4,597 nt of DNA from a virus (taxonomy: Duplodnaviria; Heunggongvirae; Uroviricota; Caudoviricetes): IMG/VR virus record IMGVR_UViG_2734482566_000007. One strand, given 5' to 3'. Under the pieces are notes generated by a model. The model worked only from the letters and a program-made list of their open reading frames with translations. It ran no database searches and had not been told where the DNA came from. The first letter of the stretch is position 1. Each line of letters begins with the position of its first letter. Positions 61 through 3,819 of the stretch are shown piece by piece. Position numbers and translations under genes: made by a program.

Positions 61-414
61 TTAAAAAAAGAACAAATGGTAGTGTCCGCTATTGCCAGTA
101 CACCTCAATTGCTCTGCGGCTTCGCTCAGAGCTGGCGTATGTTCCCGGCCTACTGATTCACACAGGTAATCAACGAAACCGGACACCAGTTTTCGTTCGC
201 GAGGCGTGATCGCCCCACCGACCGGAGTCCAGTAATCGAAACCCAGTTGCAGGAGTTTGAAAAAACGCTTGTGGAATGCGTAGTTACACACACGCTTAAA
301 GTCTGCGTGTATCCACTCACCTATTTTGATTTGATGCAGAAAATCGCAACTCTCCGGCGTCGCCGGGAGAAGTAATCCGGAAGAGGTTTGTTTGACCAGT
401 TGTATATGTGCCAT
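61..414 (-). CDS. Hypothetical phage protein, 117 aa from the ATG at 414 (the ORF track extends it to a TTG at 456); possibly a NinB/YbcN-like (DUF1367-type) protein
   Basis: Open frame ending at TAA 61-63. The codon at 456-454 is TTG, not ATG. The first ATG (414-412) has a GGAGA Shine-Dalgarno 7 nt upstream (minus-strand ccGGAGAaagccgATG). Family assignment is a weak recollection based on the motif ...RVCNYAFHKRFFKLLQLGFDYW... and the position downstream of the replication genes. Confidence 0.55.
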   Translation of the reverse strand: MAHIQLVKQTSSGLLLPATPESCDFLHQIKIGEWIHADFKRVCNYAFHKRFFKLLQLGFDYWTPVGGAITPRERKLVSGFVDYLCESVGREHTPALSEAAEQLRCTGNSGHYHLFFF

Positions 415-452
415 CGGCTTTCTCCGGTGGCACGGTGTTACACAGCAGGAGT

Positions 453-740
453 TCAATCCTGCTCAAGATTGTAGATGAGTTTATTCTTCAGCAAAAGCAG
501 AAAACCAGCCTTAAAACCAATCTCTTTCAAAACCCGTAATGATGTGACAAATTCGTCCTCACGCAAAATAAAACCGTCCGTCAGAAGTCCATTACAAAAA
601 TAAAATAACACAGCACCGCTCTTCCTTTGTTGAGATTGCAAACATCTAATGCGGCAATGGCTGACAATCGCTCCATTCTCAACGCGCACAGCATAGAGGC
701 CATTTTCACTAAAAATTTCACGCAATTCTTCGATTTTCAT
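453..740 (-). CDS. Hypothetical small phage protein, 95 aa, no recognisable domain
   Basis: ATG at 740-738 preceded by GGAAGGA 8 nt upstream; stop TGA 455-453. Sits directly downstream of a sigma70-like promoter at 822-849. No motif I can assign. Confidence 0.6.
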   Translation of the reverse strand: MKIEELREIFSENGLYAVRVENGAIVSHCRIRCLQSQQRKSGAVLFYFCNGLLTDGFILREDEFVTSLRVLKEIGFKAGFLLLLKNKLIYNLEQD

Positions 741-821
741 CTTCAGAATCCTTCCAGATAAATAGCTCTCCCCTGTTCGGGGTCCATCCCTCTTCTCCCT
801 GCGCGCTACTTAAGTGAGTCG

Positions 822-849
822 ATTCTATCTGCGAAGGTGCGCGAATCAA
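822..849 (-). promoter_or_regulatory. Candidate sigma70 promoter for the 453..740 gene: TTGATT (-35, plus 844-849), 16-bp spacer, TAGAAT (-10, plus 822-827)
   Basis: Hexamers read on the minus strand directly downstream of the hok terminator and about 80 nt upstream of the ATG at 740. The same two hexamers recur upstream of hok. Confidence 0.4.
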
Positions 850-867
850 ATTCACCGGAAATAAACA

Positions 868-913
868 ACAAAAAACCCGCCGAAACGCTGAGAGATCACA
901 GCGATGGGCGGGT
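868..913 (-). terminator. Rho-independent terminator ending the hok transcript
   Basis: On the minus strand, stem ACCCGCC (913-907) pairs with GGCGGGT (881-875), with an inner CGCUG/CAGCG helix, followed by a U6 tract (plus A-run 870-875) and more U-rich sequence. Not a terminator in the plus orientation. Confidence 0.7.
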
Positions 914-953
914 TAAGTGCGGGTGCGTTGAGGATGCCTGACACATCAGAGGT

Positions 954-981
954 GGGCGGGGATGGGATCAGCTCCCCGCCC
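954..981 (-). other. Perfect 9-bp GC-rich stem-loop (GGGCGGGGA / TCCCCGCCC, 10-nt loop) in the hok 3' UTR
   Basis: Plus 954-962 is the exact reverse complement of 973-981. It lies 9 nt after the hok stop and has no U-tract, so it is a structural or stability element, not a terminator. It shares the CCCGCC/GGCGGG motif with the downstream terminator, which would allow alternative long-range pairing as described for hok mRNAs. Confidence 0.5.
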
Positions 982-989
982 GGTCACTC

Positions 990-1145
990 TTACTTCCTGG
1001 ATTCGTAGTCTACGAAGACAGCGACCTCCGTCTGGCCGGTTCGGATTCGTACCTCACAGAGGTCTTTCCTCGTTACCAGTGCCGTCACTATGACGGTTAA
1101 ACAGATGACGATCAGGGCGATTAACATCGCCTTTTGCTGCTTCAT
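990..1145 (-). CDS. hok: Hok/Gef family type I toxin, 51 aa (MKQQKAMLIALIVICLTVIVTALVTRKDLCEVRIRTGQTEVAVFVDYESRK); closest in my recollection to HokD/RelF
   Basis: ATG at 1145-1143 with AGGAG 9 nt upstream; stop TAA 992-990. Single transmembrane helix followed by the conserved RK.LCE.R....EVA..Y Hok signature. The 70-aa ORF in the track is an in-frame upstream extension and is unlikely to be the real start. Confidence 0.85.
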   Translation of the reverse strand: MKQQKAMLIALIVICLTVIVTALVTRKDLCEVRIRTGQTEVAVFVDYESRK

Positions 1146-1321
1146 AGCCTGCTTCTCCTTGCCTTTCGGCATGTAAGAGGCTAACCTACATGTGCAAAGC
1201 ATGAAATTGGCCTCAGATTAATGTTAAGCGTCTTGCCGGACGCGTAATGTTAACTGGGGCTTTTCTCTATCTGCCTTTTGGTGTTCATGCCTGAAGCAGA
1301 TAGCCTCAAGCACCCGCAGTC

Positions 1322-1351
1322 ATTCTACTTACCTCGCCAATATGAAATCAA
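1322..1351 (-). promoter_or_regulatory. Candidate sigma70 promoter for hok: TTGATT (-35, plus 1346-1351), 18-bp spacer, TAGAAT (-10, plus 1322-1327)
   Basis: Read on the minus strand between the queH stop (1373) and the hok start. Would give a leader of roughly 170 nt, comparable to known hok mRNAs. Confidence 0.45.
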
Positions 1352-1372
1352 TCAGAAAGGTGCCCCATAAAA

Positions 1373-2059
1373 TCACTCCTTCTCTTCTTTACCGTAGTGG
1401 AGTTGACCAATTTTGATAAGAGGGCGTCCCTGAGATTTGCGGTGTAGATTGGTATCGCGCAGAGAATACACACAGCCACAATATTCCTGCTGATAGAATT
1501 TTTCGCGCTTGCTGATTTCAATCATACGGGACGAGCCGCCCTGCTTGCGCCAGTTATAATCCCAGTACACCATGCCCGGATAATGCGCGACGGCTCGCCG
1601 CCCACAGTCGTTAACCTGCTGCATATTTTTCCAGCGTGAAATGCCCAGTGAACTGCTGATCACACTGAAACCATTTTCAGCGGCGTACAGCGCTGTCCGC
1701 TCAAAACGCATGTCAAAACACATGGTGCAACGGATCCCTCGTTCGGGCTCCCATTCCATTCCTTTGGCTCGTTCAAACCAGTTGTCTGTGTCGTAATCAG
1801 CATCAATAAACGGCACGCCGTGTTGTTCAGCAAAGCGAATATTCTCATCCTTACGAATTAAATACTCTTTCTGAGGATGAATGTTCGGGTTGTAGAAAAA
1901 GATGGTGTAGTCGATTCCCGAGGCCTGAAGCGCCTCCATCACCTCACCGGAACATGGAGCACAGCAAGAGTGCAGTAGTAGTTTGTTTGCCCCGTTTGGG
2001 AGCTCCAATTTGGGCCGTTTGAAATCAGCAACTGTCATAAATATGTTTATTGGGGTCAT
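1373..2059 (-). CDS. queH: Epoxyqueuosine reductase QueH (DUF208 family), 228 aa (221 aa if translation starts at Met8)
   Basis: N-terminal [12 protein letters not shown] cysteine motif and C-terminal EYCGCVYS motif are characteristic of DUF208/QueH. ATG at 2059-2057, stop TGA 1375-1373. No clear Shine-Dalgarno before either candidate start. Confidence 0.75.
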
Positions 2060-2179
2060 AAAAATATCAAAGAGTGTAGCATTAGAACGGGGCTATCGGA
2101 AACAGATGTGTGACTGCTCCCCGCCCTTTCGGGTGGTCTCCTGATGATTTGAGGGTGCAGAAATCCCTCCGGTTAAGGA

Positions 2180-2206
2180 TTAAATTTTTAACAGTGCTAA
2201 ATTTAA
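2180..2206 (-). promoter_or_regulatory. AT-rich dyad TTAAATTT-N11-AAATTTAA immediately downstream of the 2207..2620 stop; candidate operator or promoter element in the 147-bp intergenic region upstream of queH
   Basis: Plus 2180-2187 is the reverse complement of 2199-2206. It is AT-only, so a weak hairpin. Function is inferred only. Confidence 0.25.
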
Positions 2207-2620
2207 TTATTCAGTTCTGGATTTTGTCGCCCTGCGTATCCGCGCTTTCGCGTTACGCTCAATCTGTATCAGCTTTTCTATATTTCTCCGCCTTTCCTGT
2301 TCCTCCTGGCGCAATAGCCTTACATCATCTGCCAGTCTGGTTTCTCTTTTTGCCACAGAGAGCATCCAGTCAAACGGCTCCACAACCGCACCGCAGATTT
2401 TACAGCGGACCTGACGCTCTTTTTCGTCAACCCGTACAGAGGCGTGATGGCAATATGGTCTTTCCGATGGCTCATAAAGAAAATTAACCTGATTACGAGG
2501 GTCATCCTCTTTTACCGGAAATAAAACGATATTGCTTAACTCATCTTCTGGTTTTATTTCCATGCTCCTCTCCTTTGATGCGAATGCCAGCGGTAATTGA
2601 AGCCTGATAGCTAATTTCAT
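2207..2620 (-). CDS. Hypothetical Zn-ribbon-like protein with a basic coiled-coil C-terminus, 137 aa (118 aa if translation starts at the internal ATG at 2563)
   Basis: ATG 2620-2618 directly abuts the TGA (2623-2621) of the upstream gene, suggesting translational coupling; AGGAGG lies 11 nt upstream. The internal ATG at 2563 has a stronger SD (aaAGGAGAGGAGcATG). Putative metal ligands in ...PYCHHASVRVDEKERQVRCKICG...; C-terminus is Arg/Glu-rich. Confidence 0.6.
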   Translation of the reverse strand: MKLAIRLQLPLAFASKERSMEIKPEDELSNIVLFPVKEDDPRNQVNFLYEPSERPYCHHASVRVDEKERQVRCKICGAVVEPFDWMLSVAKRETRLADDVRLLRQEEQERRRNIEKLIQIERNAKARIRRATKSRTE

Positions 2621-3043
2621 TCACAGTATCGCCTCCTGAAAATTACCCTGATAGAAAGCCAGTACACGCTGCATAGCTTCGCTCTTCCGGCACTCGCGAC
2701 AGATTATATTCAGGCGCCTGTCGTAGCGGCGTATTTCTCCGTCAGGTAATGACCAGATAAGGTCCGGATCAACAACAACCGGTTTCCTCACCTTTACTCT
2801 CGAGAGTTTTTTGCGGGCGCTTTGCCAGTCCTTGCGAGCCTGTTCAGACGGGAATAAGCCGTAGCCAGAATTATATACATCACCACTTGCGACCAGTTCT
2901 ATGCATAAGCGACCGACAGACGCACGACTGATACCTGTTTCATCTGACAACTGCCGAATCGTGACCCGACCGTCCTGATGCACGAGTTCCACAATTCGCG
3001 TCTTCAGTTCTTCCCGCTGTTCGGGAGTAAAAGGTTTCGCCAT
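2621..3043 (-). CDS. Ren-like winged-HTH protein, 140 aa (resembles lambda Ren in the HTH and C-terminal ...RECRKSEAMQRVLAFY... segments, with an internal insertion of about 45 aa)
   Basis: ATG 3043-3041 with AGGAGG about 6 nt upstream; stop TGA 2623-2621. Lies immediately downstream of the DnaC-like gene, the same position as ren after P in lambda. HTH segment VTIRQLSDETGISRASVGRL. The Ren assignment is from a recalled sequence and needs a search to confirm. Confidence 0.65.
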   Translation of the reverse strand: MAKPFTPEQREELKTRIVELVHQDGRVTIRQLSDETGISRASVGRLCIELVASGDVYNSGYGLFPSEQARKDWQSARKKLSRVKVRKPVVVDPDLIWSLPDGEIRRYDRRLNIICRECRKSEAMQRVLAFYQGNFQEAIL

Positions 3044-3057
3044 AAATCCTCCTGAAA

Positions 3058-3819
3058 CTACTTAACAACCCTCGAATGGCTAACATTCGGACGCCAGCTC
3101 TCCCAGTTAAAATTCACCCAGCGCCCGCCGTTCATGACCATGCGATCCATCACCCGCTCGCCGAGCAATGTTTTCATCACCTCATAGTTCAGGTGATGAA
3201 AACATTGCTCGGCGAGCGGGTGATGGATCGCATGGTCATGAACGGCGGGCGCTGGGTGAATTTTAACNNNNNNNNNNNNNNNNNNNNNNNNNNNNNNNNN
3301 NNNNNNNNNNNNNNNNNNNNNNNNNNNNNNNNNNNNNNNNNNNNNNNNNNNNNNNNNNNNNNNNNNNNNNNNNNNNNNNNNNNNNNNNNNNNNNNNNNNN
3401 NNNNNNNNNNNNNNNNNNNNNNNNNNNNNNNNNNNNNNNNNNNNNNNNNNNNNNNNGATAGCTGCCGCTAAGTGATTCTTCCCGGTACCAGGTTTTCCGC
3501 TGAACGCAAAATTTGTACACCCGGTCATCAGTTCATCGGCGATGGATTTCGCCTGGCTTAACGCGTATCGCTGGCCGTCGTTCTGCACCTGGTAATTCGC
3601 AAACGAGCATTTACGGTGCAACGGCTGGATGCCTGAGCGATTCAGAATTTTTTCCACCCGCAACTGGCGATTCAGGCGGTTGATCTCCTCGCTACGTTTC
3701 TGGCCTTCAGCAAGTTGCCACTCGCGCCACTCCGCTACCGTTCTGAATGGGGCGGTTACATGTGGCGGGGTCAGTCGGCGGATGCGTTCCAGAACGCCGC
3801 CTGTCGCAATATTTTTCAT
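3058..3819 (-). CDS. DnaC-like replicative helicase loader (AAA+ ATPase), coding sequence interrupted by an assembly gap and a fold-back artifact
   Basis: ATG 3819-3817. N-terminal part closely resembles E. coli DnaC / prophage YdaV-type proteins, including Walker A FSGKPGTGKNHLAAAI; genuine C-terminus ...NYEVMKTLLGERVMDRMVMNGGRWVNFNWESWRPNV... Residues between are N-masked (3268-3456) or come from an inverted duplicate (3191-3267). Confidence 0.85.
   Translation of the reverse strand: MKNIATGGVLERIRRLTPPHVTAPFRTVAEWREWQLAEGQKRSEEINRLNRQLRVEKILNRSGIQPLHRKCSFANYQVQNDGQRYALSQAKSIADELMTGCTNFAFSGKPGTGKNHLAAAIXXXXXXXXXXXXXXXXXXXXXXXXXXXXXXXXXXXXXXXXXXXXXXXXXXXXXXXXXXXXXXXVKIHPAPAVHDHAIHHPLAEQCFHHLNYEVMKTLLGERVMDRMVMNGGRWVNFNWESWRPNVSHSRVVK
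3106..3267. repeat. Perfect 77-bp inverted duplication (arms 3106-3182 and 3191-3267, 8-bp spacer) ending exactly at the N gap; probable fold-back assembly artifact
   Basis: The reverse complement of 3191-3267 is identical to 3106-3182. The left arm encodes the conserved DnaC C-terminus; the right arm gives non-homologous residues (VKIHPAPAVHDHAIHHPLAEQCFHHL) where the AAA+ core should be. Confidence 0.8.
3268..3456. other. Assembly or scaffold gap, 189 N
   Basis: Run of N. Gap plus artifact arm totals 266 nt, close to the roughly 260 nt expected for the missing DnaC-like core, so the reading frame is fortuitously preserved. Confidence 0.95.

What the first reader, a model, noticed from the sequence alone, without database searches (positions are those of the whole stretch)
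1146..1314. Structured hok leader with palindromes and direct repeats: candidate target and coding region for a Sok-like antisense RNA
The leader contains an 8-bp stem CTATCTGC/GCAGATAG (1267-1274 with 1296-1303), a palindrome GCGTC-TTGCCG-GACGC (1228-1243) and two direct copies of TAATGTTAA (1218-1226 and 1245-1253) flanking it. Hok-family loci are normally controlled by a small cis-encoded antisense RNA on the opposite strand of the leader; that would be a plus-strand RNA here. I could not place a convincing plus-strand promoter or terminator by eye, so this is an expectation, not an observation.
Basis: inference. Interest (0 to 1): 0.45.

Follow-up and report, generated by a model that had tools for sequence, protein, structure and literature searches.

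The report
Sok-type antisense antitoxin gene of prophage hok
The structured stretch is the leader of a prophage hok toxin gene and, on the opposite strand, almost certainly encodes the expected small Sok antisense antitoxin RNA (window 1194-1264). It is an ordinary allele of the characterised hokW/sokW system, and differs from it mainly in the short tail that recognises the toxin mRNA.

Summary
The expected plus-strand Sok-like RNA is well supported.

[quoted passage not shown] Rfam "sok" scores 117 bits against a cutoff of 59.
- **Closest relative:** It is 92% identical to hokW/sokW of phage 933W/Sp5. The annotated 71-nt sokW maps to window 1194-1264 (+).
- **Promoter:** TTGCCT (1159-1164), 17 nt, TAACCT (1182-1187). 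This is the same -10 hexamer whose mutation unleashed HokW toxicity in Takada 2021.
- **Terminator:** The "direct repeats" and the "palindrome" are the arms and tip of one long plus-strand hairpin (1209-1261) followed by a T-run. Across 57 homologues it is 96.6% paired with compensatory changes. It carries 174 G·U cells on the Sok strand against 6 on the hok strand.
- **The 8-bp stem:** It is a conserved hok-mRNA helix that competes with a second conserved 5' hairpin. tac/fbi end-pairing is also present.
- **What differs:** The Sok 5' tail, which faces the target loop, is hypervariable across alleles (7 of 16 nt differ from sokW).

Verdict: a new allele of a known kind, of low interest.

The parts
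1194..1264 (+). Predicted Sok-like antisense antitoxin RNA, about 71 nt and orthologous to sokW. It has a single-stranded 5' tail (about 1194-1208) and a terminator hairpin.
   Evidence: The 933W sokW misc_RNA (L001 1777-1847) maps here. Fold of 1194-1266: -30.2 kcal/mol, z = -4.7, with the first 9 nt unpaired.
1159..1187 (+). Sok promoter: -35 TTGCCT (1159-1164), 17-nt spacer, -10 TAACCT (1182-1187). G1194 corresponds to the annotated sokW start.
   Evidence: Both hexamers are nearly invariant in 60 distinct loci; only position 1185 varies (C/T), and G1194 is invariant. Takada's promoter-less mutant changes exactly this hexamer, TAACCT to GAGCCG, as derived from primers YO-421/422. The homologous R1-type plasmid hexamers are TTGCGC and TATCCT. 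The consensus scan does not call this promoter.
1209..1264 (+). Sok stem-loop and intrinsic terminator: stem 1209-1233 pairs with 1238-1261, with bulge A1217, mismatch A1227/G1244 and loop 1234-1237, followed by a T-run.
   Evidence: MFE; 22 pairs, 96.6% paired, 6 pairs changed on both sides, 0 of 500 shuffles as good; 174 G.U cells on this strand against 6 on the other; U1213.G1257 is a wobble in 57 of 57 sequences.
1228..1243 (.). Inner 16-nt palindrome (GCGTC TTGCCG GACGC) at the tip of the Sok hairpin. It is an insertion specific to the prophage hokW-type subfamily.
   Evidence: It appears as an insertion relative to the Rfam model. It is absent from the hokC-like and Photorhabdus loci. 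Its loop occurs in both orientations among alleles.
1194..1209 (.). Hypervariable recognition segment. It is the Sok 5' tail on the plus strand. On the minus strand it is the mok SD-AUG spacer, the mok AUG, and six of the seven bases of the sokT loop CUUUGCA (1199-1193); the last loop base, 1193, lies just outside the segment.
   Evidence: Entropy reaches 1.99 bits at 1196-1197. There are 22 loop alleles in 60 loci. Nucleotide diversity is 0.45-0.54 here, against 0.045 in the Sok hairpin.
1177..1214 (-). Sok target (sokT) hairpin of the refolded hok mRNA. The mok SD GAGGC (1214-1210) pairs with the dcb GCCUC (1181-1177). The mok AUG (1202-1200) sits in the stem next to the 7-nt loop.
   Evidence: Rfam consensus structure and the family alignment. 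On its own the truncated piece 1216-1180 folds weakly, so the stem rests on homology rather than on energy.
1267..1303 (-).
   Evidence: helix 94.3% paired, 4 pairs changed on both sides (for example A1301-U1269 becomes G-C). It forms in the MFE fold of the full-length mRNA.
1287..1315 (-). hok mRNA 5' end and tac element (GGGUGCUUGAGG, 1315-1304), plus the alternative 5' hairpin (1313-1303 with 1297-1287).
   Evidence: The Rfam model starts at 1315. Entropy over the tac element is 0.08. The alternative hairpin is 97.8% paired with 3 pairs changed on both sides, and it is the MFE structure of the isolated leader.
1322..1351 (-). hok promoter: TTGATT, 18 nt, TAGAAT. The -10 ends 7 nt upstream of G1315.
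990..1202 (-). mok (70 codons, AUG at 1202) read in frame into hok (51 codons, AUG at 1145, SD AAGGAG at 1160-1155); the two share one stop codon.
   Evidence: Pfam HOK_GEF scores 81 bits against a cutoff of 22. The 933W record annotates mokW and hokW with the same shared stop.
921..933 (-). fbi element (CCUCAACGCACCC), which pairs with the tac element at the mRNA 5' end.
   Evidence: The pairing appears in the MFE fold of the 448-nt mRNA. It sits at a constant position in 20 of the 21 related loci checked (195-212 nt after the hok AUG), with compensatory GGGUGC/GCACCC to GGGCGC/GCGCCC changes.
954..981 (-). G+C-rich 3'-UTR hairpin, a candidate road-block for 3' trimming.
   Evidence: -20.9 kcal/mol, z = -2.7. 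The role is inferred from the R1 model (PMC1635323).
868..914 (-). Intrinsic terminator of the hok mRNA: CCCGCC...GGCGGG followed by UUUUUU.
   Evidence: Not conserved with 933W, where homology ends near 911.

Best explanation
Window 868-1351 is a complete hok/sok-type type I toxin-antitoxin cassette carried by an E. coli lambdoid prophage. It is an allele of hokW/sokW.

The minus strand gives a roughly 450-nt mok-hok mRNA starting at G1315. The plus strand of its leader carries a small gene for a roughly 71-nt Sok-like RNA (1194-1264). That gene has its own promoter (TTGCCT-17-TAACCT) and ends in a long hairpin plus T-run.

Inferred mechanism, by homology with R1 hok/sok and hokW/sokW:
1. The full-length mRNA is locked by pairing of its 5' tac element (1315-1304) with the 3' fbi element (933-921). 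In this state it is neither translated nor bound by Sok.
2. Slow 3' trimming releases tac, and the leader refolds.
3. The mok ribosome-binding site now sits in a hairpin (1214-1177) whose loop CUUUGCA is exposed.
4. The single-stranded 5' tail of Sok (GCAAAGCAUGAAAUUG) pairs with that loop and with the mok start region. This blocks mok translation, and therefore the coupled hok translation.
5. The duplex is cut by RNase III.
6. When Sok synthesis stops (prophage induction or loss), the unstable Sok decays and Hok is made.

Shown here: the sequence elements, their conservation, covariation and strand bias, and identity with the tested sokW promoter and hairpin. Inferred: transcription of this allele, RNA half-lives, processing, RNase III cleavage and the biological role.
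For: - Rfam RF01794 scores 117 bits (cutoff 59, E = 4e-27) over 1315-1140.
- Hok is a member of Pfam HOK_GEF.
- An identical locus in two complete E. coli genomes is annotated hokD, next to queH in a prophage.
- The locus is 92% identical to 933W/Sp5 hokW-sokW, and the annotated sokW maps to 1194-1264.
- sokW was shown to be expressed and to act as an antitoxin. Mutating the same -10 hexamer, TAACCT, releases toxicity (PMC8621323).
- Sok hairpin: z = -6.3; 96.6% paired with 6 pairs changed on both sides and 0 of 500 shuffles as good; 174 G.U cells on the Sok strand against 6 on the hok strand.
- The promoter hexamers and the start base are nearly invariant in 60 loci.
- Two mutually exclusive leader helices are both conserved with covariation.
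- tac/fbi pairing is present, at a constant position in 20 of 21 related loci, with compensatory changes.
- The architecture is collinear with the R1-type plasmid hok.
- The R1 mechanism is taken from PMC9841398 and PMC1635323.
Against: - There is no expression data for this allele. The start and end of the RNA come from a GenBank annotation and a figure legend for the 933W/Sp5 homologue, not from mapping here.
- The -10 hexamer TAACCT matches only 3 of 6 consensus positions, and the consensus scans call neither the promoter nor the terminator.
- Conservation of the promoter hexamers is confounded. The same bases are the dcb box and the hok Shine-Dalgarno region on the other strand.
- The isolated target hairpin is thermodynamically weak.
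- Several chromosomal hok loci are reported to be unable to mediate killing (bioRxiv 10.1101/2025.08.07.668861).
Confidence: 0.87

Rival explanations
1. The cassette is a decayed or silent chromosomal copy. All the elements are recognisable, but the system no longer kills or is no longer regulated, as reported for several chromosomal hok loci. Sok may be made but has no consequence.
For: Chromosomal hokA, hokB and hokC loci were reported to be unable to mediate post-segregational killing. One co-resident relative, L007, has a visibly damaged leader.
Against: - The mok and hok reading frames, the SDs, both promoters, tac/fbi and the terminators are all intact.
- The promoter hexamers and the hairpin are identical to the functional hokW/sokW (PMC8621323).
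- The same allele recurs unchanged in seven distinct loci.
Confidence: 0.09
2. The stems, the palindrome and the repeats serve only as cis-acting structures of the hok mRNA (translational locking and refolding). No antisense RNA is produced from this allele.
For: The Rfam hit is on the hok-sense strand. Two leader helices covary on the minus strand. The consensus scan calls no plus-strand promoter.
Against: - The long hairpin is much better on the plus strand: -28.6 against -17.8 kcal/mol; 96.6% against 80.1% paired; 174 against 6 G.U cells; one wobble is invariant in 57 of 57 sequences.
- That bias is expected only if the plus-strand RNA is under selection.
- The homologous sokW RNA was detected.
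Confidence: 0.03
3. The 1209-1261 hairpin is a protein-binding or recombination palindrome, or a terminator for unrelated plus-strand transcription, and not part of an antitoxin RNA.
For: The inner palindrome occurs in both orientations among alleles. That is how DNA palindromes can behave.
Against: - Every neighbouring gene is on the minus strand, so there is no plus-strand gene to terminate.
- The stem tolerates G.U pairs, not A.C pairs, so it works as RNA.
- It is collinear with the Sok hairpin of R1-type loci.
Confidence: 0.01

Closest known systems
hokW/sokW (with mokW) of Stx2 phage 933W and Sakai prophage 5 (AF125520; Takada et al. 2021, PMC8621323)
   Same: - About 92% identical over window 911-1335.
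- Same in-frame mok-hok arrangement.
- Identical Sok -35 and -10 hexamers.
- Identical 51-nt Sok hairpin, including the 16-nt tip insertion.
- Same tac and fbi elements.
   Different: - 7 of the first 16 Sok nucleotides differ (1195-1197, 1204, 1206, 1208-1209), so the target loop is CUUUGCA rather than CUGAACA.
- Predicted tail duplex energy is -22.3 kcal/mol for the cognate pair, against -8.8 and -11.0 for the two cross pairs.
- There is one change in the promoter spacer (1172), and the ucb is GCUUCA rather than GCCUCG.
- Homology stops at about 911 and about 1335, and the cassette sits in a different part of the phage genome. Here it lies between queH and the nin-type genes; in 933W it lies near the right end.
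hok/sok (parB) of plasmid R1 and related IncF plasmids
   Same: - The order of elements is collinear: tac, leader helix, Sok hairpin, mok SD, target loop, dcb with the Sok -10, hok SD with the Sok -35.
- There is tac/fbi end-pairing.
- Sok is a 5' tail followed by one stem-loop (PMC1635323).
   Different: - Only the 47-nt stretch 1141-1187 is close enough for blastn, and that match (89% identity) is to related Hok-family plasmid loci, not specifically to R1.
- Hok is about 44% identical (figure quoted for HokW in PMC8621323).
- The Sok hexamers are TTGCGC and TATCCT.
- The Sok hairpin lacks the 16-nt tip, giving 64 nt rather than about 71 nt.
- From my reading of the aligned R1-type sequence, mok is out of frame with hok there and in frame here.
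Chromosomal hokC(gef)-like and Photorhabdus hok loci (L016-L023, L025-L040)
   Same: The leader architecture and Sok hairpin position are the same, with compensatory base changes.
   Different: They lack the 16-nt tip insertion and have different stem sequences. E. coli K-12 copies are reported as inactive.
Sib/Ibs type I systems of E. coli (analogy for target discrimination; PMC2943612)
   Same: Several paralogous cis-antisense pairs share one genome and repress only their cognate mRNA, according to the abstract listed.
   Different: The toxin and the RNA are unrelated. The paper was cited from its abstract only and was not tested here.

Membership tests
[quoted passage not shown] | Small hydrophobic toxin of the Hok/Gef family | tested here: met
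   Pfam PF01848 scores 81.1 bits against a cutoff of 22. PGAP names the identical protein HokD. The NCBIfam Hok subfamily model scores 55 bits, below its cutoff of 73.
[quoted passage not shown] | Leader RNA matching the family covariance model in sequence and structure | tested here: met
   RF01794 matches over its full length (1-157) at 117 bits against a gathering score of 59, E = 4e-27, on the minus strand, with a 16-nt insertion in hairpin 2.
[quoted passage not shown] | Upstream mok reading frame with its own SD, overlapping hok | tested here: met
   AUG at 1202, preceded by GAGG (1214-1211) with an 8-nt spacer, read in frame into hok. The 933W record annotates mokW the same way. Translational coupling itself was not tested.
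[quoted passage not shown] | Cis-encoded antisense gene opposite the mok start region: promoter, single-stranded 5' tail, one stem-loop terminator | tested here: met
   Promoter hexamers are conserved and identical to the experimentally mutated sokW -10. The hairpin shows covariation and bias towards the plus strand. The 5' tail is unpaired in the fold.
[quoted passage not shown] | Long-range tac/fbi pairing of the mRNA ends | tested here: met
   The pairing is present in the MFE fold of the 448-nt mRNA. It is at a conserved position, with compensatory changes, in 20 of 21 loci. Duplex energy alone is only about 2.4 sd better than a shuffled 3' UTR.
[quoted passage not shown] | Alternative, mutually exclusive leader foldings (ucb/dcb switching) | tested here: met
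   Two overlapping helices both use 1296-1303, and each is conserved with covariation. The SD can pair with either GCUUCAG (ucb) or GCCUC (dcb), as read directly from the sequence.
[quoted passage not shown] | Unstable Sok and stable mRNA; 3' processing; RNase III cleavage of the duplex; killing on loss of Sok | not testable with these tools
   Shown only for R1 and, in part, for hokW/sokW.
hokW/sokW subfamily (lambdoid prophage cassette) | Extended Sok hairpin with the 16-nt tip insertion, and the TTGCCT/TAACCT promoter | tested here: met
   Identical to 933W across 1210-1281 and across 1143-1194, apart from one spacer base.
hokW/sokW subfamily (lambdoid prophage cassette) | Same Sok recognition tail as sokW (same specificity) | tested here: not met
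   7 of 16 tail nucleotides differ. The predicted cross-duplexes are far weaker than the cognate one. This is therefore a different allele, probably with a different specificity.

The most novel reading that the evidence does not exclude
The 16-nt Sok tail and target-loop segment may be a specificity cassette kept diverse by selection, so that the several hok/sok copies brought into one cell by different lambdoid prophages (or Photorhabdus islands) stay orthogonal. No resident Sok could then neutralise an incoming or competing element's Hok. On this reading the window carries one of at least 21 such specificities.

Support:
- Nucleotide diversity is 0.45-0.54 in the tail, against 0.045 in the adjacent Sok hairpin and 0.085 at hok third-codon positions.
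- All 21 co-resident pairs in 8 genomes differ by at least 4 of 16-18 tail nucleotides, while the hairpin and promoter are often identical.
- Only 6% of non-cognate tail pairs reach 70% of the cognate duplex energy.
- Mosaic alleles exist, such as L100, which has this window's spacer with the sokW loop.

Not excluded: relaxed constraint on a loop and spacer, hitch-hiking through recombination, and sampling bias. The loci were chosen by Hok similarity. With this many alleles, random draws would also usually differ.
Probability: 0.45. Interest if true: 0.4.

Novelty: new member of a known kind. Interest (0 to 1): 0.2.

Why it matters
- **Annotation:** RefSeq records carrying this exact sequence list only 'hokD'; the Sok gene, mok and the RNA elements are not annotated. 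Placing Sok at 1194-1264 completes the annotation of a cassette related to sequences found in 4713 of 5426 complete E. coli genomes.
- **A caveat for users of Rfam:** the 'sok' model is written in the hok-mRNA sense. A hit gives the opposite strand to the antitoxin.
- **The only wider point:** the recognition tail is hypervariable. If that reflects selection for orthogonality, it would bear on prophage-prophage competition and on the choice of non-cross-reacting hok/sok modules for plasmid stabilisation.

Tried and rejected
- **Consensus scans:** They found only the hok promoter (1351-1322) and another minus-strand site (849-822). They found no plus-strand promoter or terminator. This is a limit of the scan (the -10 matches 3 of 6; the stem is bulged), not evidence of absence.
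- **Rfam hits to MIR2950, mir-3473 and Atu_L6 at 3111-3245:** All are below their gathering scores. They are caused by an artificial fold-back next to the N gap. Rejected.
- **Reading the Rfam 'sok' hit as the antitoxin strand:** Rejected. The model ends in the hok SD and AUG.
- **Direct repeats as iterons or binding sites:** Rejected. They are the two arms of the hairpin, and the repeat is specific to this subfamily's stem sequence.
- **Folding the target hairpin alone (1216-1180):** No better than shuffles. I cut off its basal GCCUC partner, so the result is uninformative.
- **tac/fbi duplex energy against a shuffled 3' UTR:** Only z of about -2.4. The case rests on position and compensatory changes.
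- **U-turn (YUNR) motif:** The window loop contains UUUG, but some alleles (CCAGACA) have no YUNR. I do not claim it as a family rule.
- **NCBIfam Hok models:** Below their cutoffs.
- **Literature:** I found no paper on Sok tail diversity or cross-talk among hok paralogues. The 2026 Hok survey analysed only the coding sequence.

Full report
**1. Observation**

- CTATCTGC (1267-1274) is complementary to GCAGATAG (1296-1303).
- GCGTC-TTGCCG-GACGC lies at 1228-1243.
- TAATGTTAA occurs twice, at 1219-1227 and 1245-1253.

The region is more structured than chance on both strands.
- The minus-strand RNA 1315-1255 folds at -25.8 kcal/mol (z = -3.7).
- The plus-strand RNA 1205-1265 folds at -28.6 kcal/mol (z = -6.3).
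- The same 61 nt read on the minus strand reach only -17.8 kcal/mol.

**2. Context**

The window is a piece of an E. coli lambdoid prophage.
- Bases 108-3194 are 99.8% identical to E. coli FDAARGOS_943.
- The tested stretch 860-1380 is 100% identical in two complete genomes.
- All genes run on the minus strand: queH (1373-2059), a DUF977 gene, a ydaV/dnaC-like gene, and others.
- The finding covers the leader of a 51-codon Hok/Gef gene. Its AUG is at 1145, and Pfam HOK_GEF scores 81 bits.
- A 19-codon in-frame extension, mok, starts at AUG 1202.
- Rfam RF01794 'sok' matches 1315-1140 over its full length at 117 bits, against a gathering score of 59.

That match is on the minus strand. The model begins with the hok mRNA 5' end and finishes with the hok Shine-Dalgarno and AUG. 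It therefore describes the hok leader in mRNA sense. It identifies the locus but does not itself show where Sok is.

**3. The antisense gene**

The closest characterised relative is hokW/sokW of Stx2 phage 933W and Sakai prophage 5, at 92% identity over window 911-1335. The 933W record annotates sokW as a 71-nt plus-strand RNA. Through the gap-free part of the alignment it maps to window 1194-1264.

*Promoter.* Upstream lie TTGCCT (1159-1164) and TAACCT (1182-1187), separated by 17 nt. TAACCT ends 7 nt before G1194.
- Both hexamers are identical in 933W.
- Takada et al. detected sokW RNA by Northern blot.
- They showed that a promoter mutant became toxic, and that sokW supplied in trans partly rescued it (PMC8621323).
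- Their mutagenic primers convert hok-sense TAGGTTAG to CCGGCTCG. On the Sok strand that is TAACCT to GAGCCG, exactly this hexamer.
- In the R1-type plasmid locus the homologous hexamers are TTGCGC and TATCCT.

*Terminator.* Downstream of a roughly 15-nt unpaired tail, the RNA forms one long hairpin.
- The stem pairs 1209-1233 with 1238-1261.
- It has bulge A1217, mismatch A1227/G1244 and loop UGCC.
- It is followed by UUUU.

The arms resemble each other because the stem is made of U-A pairs plus adjacent U.G and G.U wobbles. The 'palindrome' is the tip of the stem.

The consensus scans missed both signals. The -10 matches only 3 of 6 consensus bases, and the stem is interrupted.

**4. Comparative test**

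I collected 47 loci from genomes and 80 from viral contigs.

*Sok hairpin.* On 57 distinct Sok-sense sequences (alignment A2):
- The 22-pair hairpin is 96.6% paired.
- Six pairs show changes on both sides.
- None of 500 shuffles reaches the observed pairing, and versions slid by one to three columns fall to 34-45%.

*Strand bias.* The same cells are only 80.1% pairable on the hok strand.
- There are 174 G.U cells on the Sok strand against 6 on the hok strand.
- U1213.G1257 is a wobble in all 57 sequences.
- That asymmetry is what selection on a plus-strand RNA predicts.

*Promoter conservation.* In 60 distinct full-length loci, the Sok -35, five of the six -10 positions and G1194 are invariant or nearly so. 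There is a caveat. The same bases are the hok SD region and the dcb box on the other strand, so this conservation is not independent evidence for the promoter.

**5. The rest of the leader**

- It is 94.3% paired across relatives, with four pairs changed on both sides.
- It forms in the MFE fold of the full-length mRNA.

It overlaps a second helix, 1313-1303 with 1297-1287.
- This helix is 97.8% paired, with three pairs changed on both sides.
- It is the MFE structure of the isolated leader.

Two conserved, mutually exclusive foldings are the signature of the hok mRNA family.

The 5' tac sequence GGGUGCUUGAGG (1315-1304) pairs with CCUCAACGCACCC (933-921) in the global fold.
- The partner lies at a constant distance, 195-212 nt after the hok AUG, in 20 of the 21 related loci checked.
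- It shows compensatory changes, GGGUGC/GCACCC to GGGCGC/GCGCCC.

Other elements:
- The hok promoter TTGATT-18-TAGAAT (1351-1322) sits 7 nt upstream of G1315.
- A G+C-rich 3'-UTR hairpin lies at 981-954.
- A terminator lies at 914-868.

**6. Mechanism**

This follows the R1 model as summarised in PMC9841398 and PMC1635323. For this allele it is inferred.
1. The full-length mRNA is closed by tac/fbi pairing. It is neither translated nor bound by Sok.
2. Slow 3' trimming frees tac and the leader refolds.
3. The mok SD GAGGC (1214-1210) pairs with GCCUC (1181-1177). This presents the mok AUG and the loop CUUUGCA (1199-1193).
4. The Sok 5' tail GCAAAGCAUGAAAUUG is complementary to exactly this loop and start region.
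5. Pairing blocks mok and the coupled hok translation, and the duplex is cleaved by RNase III.
6. When Sok transcription stops, Sok decays and Hok is made. For sokW this happened on prophage induction.

**7. What differs from sokW**

Between 1143 and 1281, nearly all differences from 933W fall in the Sok tail: 1195-1197, 1204, 1206 and 1208-1209. That is 7 of 16 nt. The only other change in this stretch is one base in the promoter spacer, at 1172.

Across 60 loci this segment is the most variable part of the transcribed cassette.
- Entropy reaches 1.99 bits.
- There are 22 loop alleles.
- Nucleotide diversity is 0.45-0.54, against 0.045 in the adjacent hairpin and 0.085 at hok third-codon positions.

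Other observations on the tail:
- Predicted tail duplexes are -22.3 kcal/mol for the cognate pair, and -8.8 and -11.0 for the two pairings with sokW/hokW.
- In eight genomes with several copies, all 21 co-resident pairs differ by at least 4 tail nucleotides, while their hairpins and promoters are often identical.

This fits diversification for non-cross-reacting specificities, but does not prove it. With this many alleles, random draws would also usually differ. The loci were also selected by Hok similarity.

**8. Comparison and membership**

Every sequence-level defining feature of hok/sok was tested and met:
- a Hok/Gef toxin;
- the covariance model;
- mok with its own SD;
- an antisense gene with a tail and one stem-loop;
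- tac/fbi pairing;
- alternative leader foldings.

The kinetic and enzymatic features cannot be tested here.

Within the hokW/sokW subfamily the promoter and the extended hairpin are the same, but the recognition tail is not. So this is a distinct allele, not sokW itself.

Against R1 the architecture is collinear. The differences are:
- sequence similarity detectable by blastn is confined to about 47 nt, 1141-1187;
- the Sok hairpin here is 16 nt longer;
- mok is in frame with hok.

**9. Verdict**

The object is an ordinary, already understood kind of system. It is very common: related sequence is present in 4713 of 5426 complete E. coli genomes. Public records with this exact sequence annotate only the toxin.

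- Novelty: new member of a known kind.
- Interest: 0.2.
- The tail hypervariability is the only feature worth a follow-up.

Noticed in passing
window 3111-3456: Window 3191-3267 is the exact reverse complement of the preceding sequence (reference 6247-6323), forming a perfect fold-back. A run of 189 N follows (3268-3456), inside the ydaV/dnaC-like gene. The reference genome has ordinary sequence there. This looks like an assembly or scaffolding artefact. It is what produced the spurious Rfam microRNA hits.
   Followed up: yes
window 1231-1240; L082, L102, L104, L024, L026: The tip of the Sok hairpin occurs in two orientations among alleles: TCTTGCAGGA, and its reverse complement TCCTGCAAGA. 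The palindrome tip has therefore been flipped at least once, while the stem was kept.
   Followed up: partly
window 911-1335 compared with L001 (933W): Similarity to 933W starts and stops abruptly at about 911 and about 1335. In 933W the cassette sits near the right genome end, next to a ygiW-like gene. Here it lies between queH and the nin-region genes. The roughly 425-bp hok/sok unit behaves as a mobile cassette (moron). Its -35 hexamer and its terminator come from the local flank.
   Followed up: partly
L100, L050/L104, L007 against window 1194-1209: Mosaic tail alleles exist. L100 combines this window's SD-AUG spacer (CAATTTC) with the sokW loop (CTGAAC), which suggests recombination inside the 16-nt recognition segment.
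   Followed up: no
window 1140-1315, minus strand: Rfam RF01794 is named 'sok antitoxin', but it is built in the hok-mRNA sense. It starts at the mRNA 5' end and ends at the hok AUG. Automated annotation from this model would put 'sok' on the wrong strand and make it about 2.5 times too long.
   Followed up: yes
window 822-849, minus strand: A second promoter-like site uses the same two hexamers as the hok promoter (TTGATT-16-TAGAAT). It lies just downstream of the hok terminator and upstream of the 95-codon ORF 740-453.
   Followed up: no
L015, L020, L049: Near-identical hok fragments turn up on very short contigs assigned to Acinetobacter idrijaensis, Xanthomonas pisi and a 'Candidatus Scatousia' MAG. 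Contamination of those assemblies with E. coli or phage DNA is more likely than real occurrence.
   Followed up: no
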